From IMG/VR virus record IMGVR_UViG_2654587792_000025: 14,932 nucleotides of DNA; one strand, given 5' to 3'. The notes below the pieces were generated by a model, which did no database searches, was not told where the DNA came from, and saw nothing but the letters and a program-made list of their open reading frames with translations. Numbering within the stretch: position 1 is the stretch's first letter; every line of letters starts with the position of its first letter. The translations under genes were made by a program, and so were the position numbers. Below are positions 2,153-2,967 of the stretch, piece by piece. The DNA comes from a virus (Duplodnaviria; Heunggongvirae; Uroviricota; Caudoviricetes).

Positions 2153-2443
2153 TTATTCGGTTGTAACTTTTTTGATCAAGGCCACTCTACGATCAGGTGT
2201 TCTTGTGATGGTGGCAGTGAATCGTTTCGCTTGGATAGTAATGGTTTCGTTCTCCTTAAGTTGCCCGTAGCGAGTTTCCACCAGGGTACCAAGACGCCAC
2301 AGACCATCATCGATACGTTTATGACTAGCAAATTTAATAAGCAACAGTTTTACGACTAACTGACCTACGTAAAAGGCGAATGCGACTCCGGCCGCTAAGA
2401 AATAGGTGGCCAACCACCAGTCCCAAGAAGTTAAATTGCTCAT
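2153..2443 (-). CDS. Small membrane protein (one hydrophobic helix near the N-terminus), function unknown
   Basis: 96-aa ORF with hydrophobic segment WWLATYFLAAGVAFAFYVGQLVV. Its ATG overlaps the stop of the upstream small ORF (ATGA), and it is co-oriented with the ligase operon. Confidence 0.55.
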   Translation of the reverse strand: MSNLTSWDWWLATYFLAAGVAFAFYVGQLVVKLLLIKFASHKRIDDGLWRLGTLVETRYGQLKENETITIQAKRFTATITRTPDRRVALIKKVTTE

Positions 2444-2592
2444 TTTCTAACCTTTGTTTCATGAACTACCCGATACACACGCTTTCCGATGCACAGTGTT
2501 TTGGTTTTAAGTTCCTGCTTAATTAAATCACGACAGATGCCGAAGCCGATAAGGAAGCCACCCATAAAAGCTAATGAGATGTATGGAATCAT
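2440..2592 (-). CDS. 50-aa small membrane protein (MIPYISLAFMGGFLIGFGICRDL...), not in the supplied ORF track
   Basis: Translated by hand from the reverse complement. A good Shine-Dalgarno (aggag) sits 7 nt upstream of the ATG; the start overlaps the stop of the 71-aa gene (ATGA) and the stop overlaps the start of the 96-aa gene (ATGA). Confidence 0.45.
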   Translation of the reverse strand: MIPYISLAFMGGFLIGFGICRDLIKQELKTKTLCIGKRVYRVVHETKVRK

Positions 2593-2804
2593 TTTAACAC
2601 TCCTGATTCTACTAATTGCTGTAGCAATACTTTCCCTTTATCAGTTAACTGGTAGTTGGCCGAACACTTCGTTTCAGAAACGTTTGCAACCAACCCTAAA
2701 CGCTCTAACTTAGCTCGCGTTTTAGGCTTCCAGTACTCAGGGAACTCCGGCCACTTACTGATTTCATGAAGCGTTTCCTTCTCCCGTTTACTTAATACGA
2801 TCAT
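2589..2804 (-). CDS. 71-aa hydrophilic protein, function unknown
   Basis: ORF co-oriented with the operon; its start overlaps the stop of the upstream 59-aa ORF and its stop overlaps the downstream 50-aa ORF start. Confidence 0.5.
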   Translation of the reverse strand: MIVLSKREKETLHEISKWPEFPEYWKPKTRAKLERLGLVANVSETKCSANYQLTDKGKVLLQQLVESGVLK

Positions 2805-2967
2805 CCTTAATCTCCTTCAGGGTGTTGGTTATTTCTACAATGCGATAAATACGACCGCGTCTTTCTATAACACCGCTTTTAATGTAGTCATTGATGCAAC
2901 TGGACATCACCACAATACCTATGAAAAAACCAACTGCTAAAAATGCAATCATCCAGCCGAGCATCAT
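2788..2967 (-). CDS. 59-aa small membrane protein (MMLGWMIAFLAVGFFIGIVVM...), not in the supplied ORF track
   Basis: Translated by hand. Its ATG overlaps the ligase TGA stop (ATGA), and it has an N-terminal hydrophobic helix. Confidence 0.4.
   Translation of the reverse strand: MMLGWMIAFLAVGFFIGIVVMSSCINDYIKSGVIERRGRIYRIVEITNTLKEIKDDRIK

What the first reader, a model, noticed from the sequence alone, without database searches (positions are those of the whole stretch)
2440..2967. Chain of tiny, translationally coupled membrane-protein genes downstream of ligase, two missing from the ORF track
Reading the minus strand by hand shows ligase, then a 59-aa gene, the 71-aa gene, a 50-aa gene and the 96-aa gene, with ATGA start/stop overlaps at three of the four junctions and a 17-nt overlap at the fourth (59-aa to 71-aa). 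Three of the four small proteins carry a single hydrophobic helix. Small early-expressed membrane proteins in phages often target host functions such as division or envelope processes, but these have no assigned function.
Basis: partly seen in the sequence, partly recalled or inferred. Interest (0 to 1): 0.45.

Follow-up and report, generated by a model that had tools for sequence, protein, structure and literature searches.

The report
Four small coupled phage-plasmid genes
Downstream of the DNA ligase of an SSU5-like phage-plasmid lie four real, conserved, overlapping small genes (three single-pass membrane proteins and one tiny winged-helix DNA-binding protein); they are already catalogued as hypothetical proteins, their function is unknown, and the find is fairly ordinary.

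Summary
On the minus strand, ligase (2964-4286) is followed by p59 (2788-2967), p71 (2589-2804), p50 (2440-2592) and p96 (2153-2443), with 4-, 17-, 4- and 4-nt overlaps.

The window is an SSU5-like phage-plasmid, 98.6% identical to Escherichia phage Cyrano (the E. coli LF82 plasmid). All four frames are intact in Salmonella, Yersinia pestis, Enterobacter, Citrobacter, Klebsiella and Cronobacter relatives. dN/dS is about 0.06-0.2, and Shine-Dalgarno sites and overlap geometry are conserved, so all four genes are real.

The two "missing" genes simply fall below a 60-aa ORF cut-off. SSU5 annotates all four, and each matches its own PHROG family of unknown function.

New points:
- p59 and p50 are probable paralogues.
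- p71 is a minimal MarR/PadR-like winged helix.
- The ancestral core is a p50-type plus p96-type pair coupled to the ligase; p59 and p71 are later additions.
- LF82 RNA-seq shows the genes are silent in lysogeny.

Function remains unknown. My best guess (about 0.3) is a cytoplasm-facing membrane complex working with lytic replication.

By-catch: the "spacer" below p96 (about 1764-2101) is an unannotated structured RNA carrying a tmRNA-tag-like frame, ANEEVYLAVA*. Related elements occur in hundreds of enterobacterial phages.

The parts
4283..4765 (-). 160-aa ORF (phrog_5055, unknown function). Its stop overlaps the ligase start by ATGA, so the overlap chain begins here.
2964..4286 (-). ATP-dependent DNA ligase (phrog_114), the last enzyme gene of the DnaB-helicase/primase/ligase module.
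2788..2967 (-). p59: single-pass membrane protein (TM residues 7-25, basic C-tail), phrog_4381. Probable paralogue of p50. The start conserved across relatives is probably the second ATG at 2964 (58 aa). It is the most dispensable member.
2963..2978 (-). Repeat copy 1, GGAGATAAAGAATGAT (Shine-Dalgarno plus start at the ligase/p59 junction).
   Evidence: the E. coli pYLPD4a junction is the exact hybrid of the two copies
2800..2815 (-). Repeat copy 2, GGAGATTAAGGATGAT (Shine-Dalgarno plus start at the p59/p71 junction). Recombination between the two copies precisely deletes p59 in one E. coli plasmid lineage.
2589..2804 (-). p71: soluble 71-aa minimal winged helix-turn-helix protein, phrog_4054 (pI 9.4).
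2440..2592 (-). p50: single-pass membrane protein (TM residues 2-20; tail pI 10.4; invariant G-x-R-[VL]-Y-R-V motif), phrog_6302. Core member.
2153..2443 (-). p96: single-pass membrane protein, phrog_4507. Predicted as one long helix (residues 6-59) followed by an amphipathic beta-hairpin (67-80); cytoplasmic part pI 10.4. Named 'C-type natriuretic protein' in RefSeq with no support. Core member.

Best explanation
Shown:
- The four ORFs are real protein-coding genes at the distal end of the helicase-primase-ligase operon of an SSU5-type phage-plasmid.
- They are arranged for translational coupling. Stop/start overlaps run from the 160-aa ORF through ligase, p59, p71 and p50 to p96, and each start has its own Shine-Dalgarno site.
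- p59, p50 and p96 are bitopic inner-membrane proteins. Each has a very short N-terminus and a strongly basic C-terminal part, so the positive-inside rule predicts N-out/C-in topology.
- p71 is a soluble minimal winged-helix protein.
- The conserved core is a p50-type plus p96-type pair coupled to the ligase. p59 is an old duplicate of the p50-type gene, and p71 was inserted between the two copies.
- In the plasmid-prophage state the genes are almost silent, like the virion genes.

Inferred (about 0.3 for this specific mechanism): the basic beta-strand tails of p50/p59 and the beta-hairpin of p96 assemble into a hetero-oligomer on the cytoplasmic face of the inner membrane. Together with the DNA-binding p71, this complex would hold replicating phage DNA or replisome components at the membrane during lytic replication. 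That would be analogous to, but not homologous with, phage phi29 membrane proteins p16.7 and p1.
For: Coding status:
- Frames are intact and dN/dS is about 0.06-0.2 in up to 12 relatives.
- Non-synonymous divergence is 2-4 times that of the ligase but far below the synonymous rate.
- Antisense frames are not conserved.

Coupling: overlap geometry of -17, -4/-1 and -4 nt and GGAG/AGGAG sites 7-10 nt upstream are conserved across genera.

Topology and charge: TM scores are 1.84-2.55, tails carry net charges of +3, +7 and +6, and tail pI is 9.7-10.4.

p71 fold: AlphaFold pLDDT is 80. Top Foldseek hits in the PDB are all MarR/PadR winged helices (probability 0.9-1.0, TM 0.6-0.72), and viral hits include TubR. 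Sub-threshold HTH_45, EarA and Csa3 winged-helix hits agree.

Paralogy: p59 and p50 align by hhalign at E 1.8e-5 over 44 collinear columns, and the diverged single-copy protein aligns with both without gaps.

Core pair:
- Diverged 110-kb elements (ligase 74% identical) have ligase, then one 56-aa p50-type gene, then a p96-type gene, all still overlapping, with no p71.
- A Klebsiella/Enterobacter lineage keeps p50 and p96 although ligase, p59 and p71 are deleted.

Context: DnaB-like helicase, primase and ligase lie in the same strand block. These plasmids carry an IncFIB replicon for maintenance.

Expression: LF82 RNA-seq gives 5-7.6 normalised counts for CYRAN_36-39, against a Cyrano median near 10.

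Precedent: phi29 p1 and p16.7 anchor replication to the membrane (PMC4974454).
Against: - There is no experimental evidence for any function.
- No member is homologous to phi29 p16.7, p1 or any characterised protein.
- The basic residues next to the TM helices could merely set topology.
- The p96 model has low confidence (pLDDT 65), and no complex could be modelled.
- The families evolve faster than the ligase and are confined to one phage-plasmid lineage.
- Members are lost or replaced in some lineages. About 80 E. coli plasmids lack p59. In some Klebsiella plasmids p96 is replaced by an unrelated 138-aa tail-anchored protein. Moellerella lacks all four. This pattern is more typical of accessory host-interaction genes than of replication factors.
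- p50 and p96 persist without the ligase, so they do not depend on it.
Confidence: 0.3

Rival explanations
1. Host-directed or exclusion module. The small membrane proteins act on a host inner-membrane target (division, envelope, transport or a membrane-bound defence effector), or they block superinfecting DNA during lytic growth. p71 would be a separate small regulator.
For: The families are lineage-restricted, evolve faster than the ligase, and can be lost or replaced: p59 is lost, p96 is swapped for an unrelated tail-anchored membrane protein, and Moellerella has none. This is the usual pattern for accessory host-interaction genes. Small early phage membrane proteins such as T4 Imm and Sp work this way (own knowledge).
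Against: No homology to any known exclusion or defence protein (PADLOC, Pfam and PHROGs). The genes are almost silent in lysogens, so they are not classical lysogen-expressed exclusion genes. Almost all conserved sequence faces the cytoplasm; the periplasmic N-termini are only 1-10 residues.
Confidence: 0.25
2. Regulatory switch. p71 is a transcription factor whose activity is controlled by sequestration at the membrane through the tails of p59, p50 and p96, as in anti-repressor or anti-sigma logic.
For: p71 has a winged-helix fold. Its gene sits between two paralogous membrane-anchor genes and is co-translated with them.
Against: The p50-p96 pair exists without p71 in diverged elements and in a Klebsiella lineage, so the membrane proteins have a function independent of p71. 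No operator-like repeats were looked for or seen. p71 lacks the dimerisation helices of MarR-type regulators.
Confidence: 0.1
3. Lysis-timing or toxin-like small membrane peptides, either holin/antiholin-like or Hok-like.
For: The sizes and single TM helix fit. The TM segment of p96 gives a weak hit to a PHROG holin family (E 0.019).
Against: The genes are not in a lysis cassette, and no endolysin or spanin is adjacent. Nothing matched Pfam at E up to 1, so the Hok/Gef and holin families held there were not hit. Translational coupling to a ligase is not how type I toxins are organised. The weak holin hit covers only the hydrophobic segment.
Confidence: 0.05
4. The ORFs are not functional genes but chance reading frames or decaying remnants.
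For: Annotation is inconsistent between records, and some members are missing in some lineages.
Against: dN/dS is far below 1 with near-saturated synonymous sites. Starts, Shine-Dalgarno sites and overlaps are conserved across six genera. Full-length matches occur in 478-670 plasmids.
Confidence: 0.02

Closest known systems
PHROG families phrog_4381 (p59), phrog_4054 (p71), phrog_6302 (p50), phrog_4507 (p96); SSU5_045-048; RefSeq hypothetical proteins of pMT1/pHCM2/SSU5-type plasmids
   Same: Full-length matches at E 1e-37 to 1e-59. These are the same genes in the same order in SSU5 and in hundreds of plasmids.
   Different: Nothing is different: they are orthologues. All are labelled 'unknown function'. 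The RefSeq name 'C-type natriuretic protein' for p96 has no support, since nothing matches in Pfam at E up to 1.
Phage phi29 membrane proteins p16.7 and p1 (membrane anchoring of phage DNA replication; PMC4974454)
   Same: Small phage-encoded membrane proteins made together with replication proteins. p16.7 has an N-terminal TM helix and a cytoplasmic DNA-binding part (own knowledge). p96, p50 and p59 have an N-terminal TM helix and basic cytoplasmic tails, and a DNA-binding winged-helix gene is embedded in the chain.
   Different: No sequence or detectable fold relationship. The host is Gram-negative and replication is not protein-primed. DNA binding, oligomerisation and localisation are untested here.
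MarR/PadR-type winged helix-turn-helix domains (and small phage winged-helix proteins such as TubR)
   Same: The predicted p71 fold (helix, short helix, beta-hairpin wing, C-terminal helix) superposes on MarR/PadR winged-helix cores (Foldseek probability 0.9-1.0, TM 0.6-0.72). It also has the conserved Y-Q-L-T-x-K-G wing motif.
   Different: p71 is only 71 aa and lacks the MarR dimerisation helices. The second HTH helix is poorly formed in the model. All Pfam and NCBIfam hits are below threshold.
Small phage inner-membrane proteins for superinfection exclusion (T4 Imm and Sp, P1 Sim; own knowledge)
   Same: Small size, membrane location, encoded by a phage.
   Different: No homology. The best-known exclusion proteins of temperate phages are expressed in lysogens, whereas these genes are near-silent in LF82 lysogens.

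Membership tests
PHROG families 4381/4054/6302/4507 (SSU5_045-048 orthologue groups) | Full-length profile match | tested here: met
   E 1.1e-39, 5e-45, 8e-37 and 6.2e-59, each covering the whole profile.
PHROG families 4381/4054/6302/4507 (SSU5_045-048 orthologue groups) | Same gene order downstream of the ligase in SSU5-type replicons | tested here: met
MarR/PadR winged helix-turn-helix (p71) | Winged-helix fold (HTH plus beta-hairpin wing) | tested here: met
   AlphaFold pLDDT 80. All top PDB hits are MarR/PadR, with probability 0.9-1.0 and TM 0.6-0.72, although Foldseek E-values are only 0.05-0.2.
MarR/PadR winged helix-turn-helix (p71) | Sequence-profile membership above the curated cut-off | tested here: not met
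   HTH_45 scores 13.7 bits against a cut-off of 25.5, and EarA 13.7 against 22. NCBIfam and PADLOC hits are weak.
MarR/PadR winged helix-turn-helix (p71) | N- and C-terminal dimerisation helices (protein of about 140 aa) and sequence-specific DNA binding | not testable with these tools
   p71 is only 71 aa. Dimerisation and DNA binding need experiments.
phi29 p16.7-type replication membrane anchor | N-terminal TM helix with a cytoplasmic C-terminal part | tested here: met
   Hydropathy and positive-inside charge distribution; p96 model with a long N-terminal helix.
phi29 p16.7-type replication membrane anchor | Sequence or fold homology to p16.7 or p1 | tested here: not met
   No Pfam, PHROG or PDB match to such proteins.
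phi29 p16.7-type replication membrane anchor | Binding of DNA or replication proteins, and an effect on replication in vivo | not testable with these tools
   Needs EMSA, two-hybrid assays and deletion mutants.
Holin | Located in a lysis cassette next to endolysin and spanin genes | tested here: not met
   The neighbours are the ligase, other small genes, a structured RNA and tRNAs. The only hit is phrog_2359 at E 0.019, over the TM segment alone.
Natriuretic peptide (the RefSeq name of p96) | Match to the natriuretic peptide family | tested here: not met
   Nothing matches in Pfam at E up to 1. The name is a propagated mis-annotation.
tmRNA (for the neighbouring RNA at about 1764-2101, not the finding itself) | Tag reading frame with a GCA resume codon, no start codon, and a stop codon in a hairpin loop | tested here: met
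   ANEEVYLAVA* at 2060-2028. The frame is conserved with synonymous changes in SSU5-like, HK620, Felix O1-like and Carvaje phages.
tmRNA (for the neighbouring RNA at about 1764-2101, not the finding itself) | tRNA-like domain (acceptor stem, T-arm) and detection by ARAGORN or Rfam at standard thresholds | tested here: not met
   ARAGORN at default settings finds nothing. Rfam tmRNA models score 12-22 bits against cut-offs of 47-84. The terminal hairpin loop NNGGU[UG]A is not a T-loop.

The most novel reading that the evidence does not exclude
The p50-type/p96-type pair (with p59 and p71 in the Enterobacteriaceae lineage) is a previously unrecognised system. It would be a membrane-anchored DNA- or replisome-tethering complex that compartmentalises lytic replication of SSU5-type phage-plasmids at the inner membrane, a Gram-negative functional analogue of phi29 p16.7/p1 built from unrelated proteins.
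Probability: 0.2. Interest if true: 0.6.

Novelty: new member of a known kind. Interest (0 to 1): 0.3.

Why it matters
SSU5-type phage-plasmids, including Yersinia pestis pMT1 and Salmonella Typhi pHCM2 relatives, are common in clinical Enterobacterales. About 650 plasmids in PLSDB carry this chain, yet its function is unknown.

Knowing that the chain is real, membrane-bound, linked to the lytic replication operon and built around a p50/p96 core gives a defined four-gene target for knock-outs. The practical lesson for annotation is that p59 and p50 are often missed and that p96 carries a meaningless name.

The more valuable outcome is the by-catch. An unannotated, covariation-supported RNA sits next to the chain and carries a tmRNA-like tag frame but no tRNA-like domain. 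It is shared with Felix O1-like, HK620-like and other enterobacterial phages. If it interferes with or exploits trans-translation, it would be a new phage strategy.

Tried and rejected
- Known-family searches of all four proteins (Pfam, NCBIfam, PADLOC): nothing above threshold.
- PDB sequence searches with the p71 and p96 profiles: only chance hits (armadillo repeats, tetrabrachion).
- p96 structure: pLDDT of only 65, so no fold search was run on it.
- p96 versus p59 or p50 by profile comparison: unrelated. The idea that all three membrane proteins form one family was rejected.
- Lipoprotein reading of p59 and p50: rejected by eye from the alignments. The residue before the Cys is Ile or Leu in p50, the p59 Cys is not conserved, and there is no positively charged n-region.
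- Wider homologues: the word-indexed searches and one exhaustive HMMER scan of 1.84 billion representatives found only SSU5-type relatives.
- The search for related loci with a mixed alignment failed. P0128 gave no viral locus.
- Antisense ORFs (74/82 aa and 70/71 aa): not conserved.
- Y. pestis sRNA-seq (PMC3770706): sR084 is on pPCP1. sR082 and sR083 are on pMT1 but could not be mapped to this locus.
- Literature searches for tmRNA in SSU5, pHCM2 or pMT1, and for 'tmRNA-like' phage RNAs: nothing relevant.
- Captured host ssrA fragment as an explanation of the neighbouring RNA: unlikely. Similarity to E. coli ssrA (sequence recalled from memory) is limited to about 40 nt around the tag, while the rest is a separate structure supported by covariation.
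Full report
**Source and context.** The window is an SSU5-type phage-plasmid. Bases 2100-4300 are 98.6% identical to Escherichia phage Cyrano (the plasmid of E. coli LF82) and 78.7% identical to Salmonella phage SSU5. A distant blastn of bases 2100-3100 finds 791 PLSDB plasmids in Klebsiella, Escherichia, Enterobacter, Salmonella, Yersinia pestis (pMT1-type), Citrobacter and Cronobacter, nearly all non-mobilizable; every one I fetched and typed carries an IncFIB replicon except the Cronobacter plasmid (rep_cluster_763). 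The minus strand carries a DnaB-like helicase (6942-8282), a primase (5679-6932), two unknown ORFs, an ATP-dependent DNA ligase (2964-4286), the four small genes, a 780-nt gap, and then tRNA-Asn, tRNA-Thr and tRNA-Ser.

**Checking the observation.**
- Ligase/p59, p71/p50 and p50/p96 share ATGA overlaps, and p59/p71 overlap by 17 nt.
- The 160-aa ORF upstream also overlaps the ligase start by ATGA, so six genes are chained.
- Kyte-Doolittle maxima are 2.55 (p59), 1.84 (p50), 2.00 (p96) and 0.21 (p71). Three proteins therefore have one TM helix and p71 is soluble.
- The two "missing" genes (59 and 50 aa) simply fall below a 60-aa ORF threshold.

**Are they genes?** I extracted orthologues from 15 loci.
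- All four frames are intact at 60-80% amino-acid identity in SSU5, Y. pestis, Enterobacter, Citrobacter, Klebsiella and Cronobacter elements.
- Nei-Gojobori dN/dS against the window is 0.08-0.14 (p59), about 0.08 (p71, with dS saturated), 0.12-0.38 (p50) and 0.06-0.12 (p96).
- Non-synonymous divergence is 2-4 times that of the adjacent ligase (0.10-0.21 against 0.05) but far below the synonymous rate of about 0.6.
- Each start has a GGAG or AGGAG site 7-10 nt upstream, and the overlap geometry (-17, -4 or -1, -4) is the same in all genera.
- Antisense ORFs are not conserved.
- The start of p59 conserved across relatives is the second ATG, which gives 58 aa and a TGATG overlap.
- The last ~12 residues of p59 overlie the Shine-Dalgarno site and the start of p71. 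Their conservation (LKE..DD) probably reflects that dual use (inference).

**Are they new?** No. SSU5 annotates all four as SSU5_045-048, and many RefSeq plasmids have WP_ records for them. Each matches its own PHROG family over its full length, all labelled "unknown function". Annotation is patchy: Cyrano lacks p59 and several PGAP records lack p50. p96 is often named "C-type natriuretic protein", a name that nothing in Pfam supports. Full-length tblastn matches in PLSDB number 670 (p50), 641 (p96), 636 (p71), 616 (ligase) and 478 (p59).

**What the proteins look like.**
- All three membrane proteins have a very short N-terminus and a basic C-terminal part (net charge +3, +7 and +6; pI 9.7-10.4). 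The positive-inside rule therefore puts the conserved soluble parts in the cytoplasm.
- p59 and p50 align collinearly (hhalign E 1.8e-5, probability 78%, 44 columns) and share a G-x-R-[IVL]-Y-R-[IV] strand motif.
- p96 is unrelated to them. It is predicted, at low confidence, as one long helix followed by an amphipathic beta-hairpin.
- p71 folds at pLDDT 80 into a winged helix. Every top PDB match is a MarR or PadR winged-helix domain, which agrees with sub-threshold winged-helix profile hits.
- None of the four families has relatives outside SSU5-type replicons in the searches run. For p96 this includes an exhaustive HMMER scan of 1.84 billion representatives, which gave 18 hits.

**Evolution of the chain.** The most distant p96 relatives lie on 64-110-kb viral contigs whose ligase is 74% identical to the window's. 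There the ligase is followed, again with an ATGA overlap, by a single 56-aa protein, and then by the p96-type gene with an 8-nt overlap. That 56-aa protein combines p50 features (IPYIL, LKQ-LKT) with p59 features (MM start, GRRVYRVVEV). There is no p71 and no second paralogue.
- A Klebsiella/Enterobacter lineage has lost ligase, p59 and most of p71 but keeps p50 and p96 intact.
- An E. coli plasmid lineage (6 of the 60 records sampled) has lost exactly p59, by recombination between two 16-nt repeats (GGAGAT[A/T]AAG[A/G]ATGAT) at the ligase/p59 and p59/p71 junctions. The ligase/p71 coupling is preserved.
- Some Klebsiella plasmids have replaced the C-terminus of p50 and swapped p96 for an unrelated 138-aa tail-anchored protein. 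Moellerella has none of the four.

The core is therefore a p50-type plus p96-type pair. p59 is a duplicate that kept the ligase junction, and p71 was inserted between the copies.

**Expression.** The LF82 transcriptomes re-analysed in PMC9928086 (S1 Table) give overnight LB values of 5.9 (ligase), 6.4 (p71), 5.0 (p50) and 7.6 (p96). The floor is 5.0, terminase and capsid genes score about 7-10, and the Cyrano median is near 10. None of these genes is among the "morons" expressed in lysogeny. Together with the separate IncFIB maintenance replicon, this indicates that the helicase-ligase block and its small genes belong to the lytic programme (inference). "Early" timing remains unverified.

**Mechanism.** Shown: real genes, arranged for translational coupling, three cytoplasm-facing membrane anchors and one winged-helix protein, a conserved p50/p96 core, and near-silence in lysogeny. 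Everything beyond that is inference.
- My preferred reading (about 0.3) is a membrane-bound hetero-oligomer that, with p71, holds replicating DNA or replisome parts at the inner membrane. This would be analogous to phi29 p16.7 and p1 (PMC4974454) but without homology.
- A host-directed or exclusion role (about 0.25) fits the fast evolution, lineage restriction and replaceability.
- Membrane sequestration of p71 as a regulatory switch (about 0.1) is weakened because p50/p96 occur without p71.
- Lysis or toxin roles (about 0.05) lack any context support.
- A non-coding reading is refuted.

**By-catch: a structured RNA next to the chain.** The gap below p96 is not empty.
- Conservation: its first 400-600 nt are 77-81% identical across genera. 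About 390 nt are still 71-73% identical in the diverged elements, where p96 itself is only about 36% identical in protein.
- Structure: an alignment of ten sequences gives a consensus fold of 83 pairs, 14 of them with compensatory changes. In the control count, 97.9% of cells are paired, against 33-44% when partners are slid. Thirteen pairs show double changes, against 6.4±1.5 in shuffles (0 of 500 reach that) and 0-3 in slid controls.
- Promoter: a promoter-like site (TTTACT, 17 nt, TAAGAT; window 2135-2107) precedes it. The Michonne homologue has TTGACA, 17 nt, TAAGAT.
- Tag frame: near the 5' end lies GCA AAC GAA GAA GTC TAT CTG GCA GTA GCC TAA TAA (2060-2028 through the first stop), which reads ANEEVYLAVA*. 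The E. coli tmRNA tag is ANDENYALAA. The frame varies only by conservative or synonymous changes: ANEDTYLAVA, ANDNQYLAVA, ANDTQYLAVA, ANEEMYLAVA and ANDNVFLAVA. It has no start codon; SSU5 has an in-frame TGA six codons upstream. Its stop codon lies in a hairpin loop, as in tmRNA helix 5.
- What is missing: there is no tRNA-like domain. ARAGORN at default settings finds nothing and calls a "permuted tmRNA" with this tag only at relaxed thresholds. Rfam tmRNA models score far below threshold and align only the tag.
- Distribution: the 5' ~110 nt, including the tag, recur at 74-77% identity in 317 phage records. They sit inside the tRNA array of Felix O1-like phages, beside tRNA-Ser in Klebsiella phage Carvaje, and between pR'/qut and the late terminator in HK620. 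They are never annotated.
- Annotation and literature: PGAP annotates nothing there in 246 E. coli genomes, and one E. coli CRISPR spacer matches it exactly. The 2014 tmRNA census lists phage ssrA only in mycobacteriophages and Bacillus phage G (PMC4131195). Literature searches found no description.

This looks like an undescribed phage RNA family with a tmRNA-like message domain. It is outside the assigned finding and only partly followed up, and I cannot exclude that it is described in papers outside the searchable library.

**Verdict.** However, they are already catalogued and functionally anonymous, so this is an ordinary feature of a phage replication operon with some new evolutionary detail. 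Interest in the finding itself is modest (0.3). The neighbouring tmRNA-like RNA deserves its own follow-up.

Noticed in passing
window ~1764-2101 (minus strand); tag-like frame 2060-2028; promoter-like site 2135-2107: An unannotated, conserved, structured RNA lies directly downstream of p96. Covariation support: 97.9% of cells paired and 13 double-compensated pairs, a count reached by 0 of 500 shuffles. It carries a tmRNA-tag-like frame, ANEEVYLAVA* (GCA resume codon, no start codon, stop in a hairpin loop), but no tRNA-like domain. ARAGORN and Rfam miss it at standard thresholds. The 5' ~110 nt with the tag recur in 317 phage records: Felix O1-like tRNA arrays, the HK620 late leader, and Klebsiella phage Carvaje. 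It is a candidate new phage RNA family with only the tmRNA-like message (tag-coding) part.
   Followed up: partly
window ~1742-1774: A 33-nt stretch at the 3' end of that RNA region matches, at 100% identity, a feature annotated as CRISPR on an E. coli chromosome (NZ_LR778147.1, 1705873-1705905). This suggests a spacer acquired against SSU5-type phage-plasmids.
   Followed up: no
window 700-9400: The consensus scan finds no sigma-70-like promoter matches on either strand across 8.7 kb, against 13.2±3.7 in shuffled sequence. There is no terminator between p96 and the tRNAs. A strong minus-strand terminator appears only at 765-746, after tRNA-Ser.
   Followed up: no
window 970-1154 (minus strand), between tRNA-Ser (922-1008) and tRNA-Thr (1222-1297): A near-threshold Rfam match to the sRNA STnc100 (44.8 bits against a cut-off of 47, E 1e-7) lies in a ~213-nt segment separating tRNA-Ser from tRNA-Thr. 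In Cyrano these two tRNA genes are only 8 nt apart, so the window carries an insertion here.
   Followed up: no
window 2800-2815 and 2963-2978; locus L003 (E. coli pYLPD4a): Two 16-nt direct repeats (GGAGAT[A/T]AAG[A/G]ATGAT) flank p59. One E. coli plasmid lineage has deleted p59 exactly between them, which joins the ligase directly to p71 with an ATGA overlap.
   Followed up: yes
loci L010, L011 (Klebsiella plasmids), downstream of p71: In these variants the C-terminus of p50 is replaced, giving a 71-aa chimera. p96 is swapped for an unrelated 138-aa protein with a C-terminal TM helix. In L011, p59 has also lost its TM segment. The slot behaves like a variable accessory locus.
   Followed up: partly
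window 2153-2443 (p96) and its RefSeq orthologues: The product name 'C-type natriuretic protein' is attached to p96 orthologues in many NCBI records, including SSU5_048. Nothing in Pfam supports it, so it is a propagated mis-annotation.
   Followed up: yes
locus L004 (Yersinia pestis pMT1-type plasmid): In Y. pestis the F1 capsule regulator gene caf1R lies about 500 nt downstream of the p96 orthologue. The conserved RNA region is retained only for its first ~500 nt, so the caf locus appears to be inserted just beyond or into this region.
   Followed up: no
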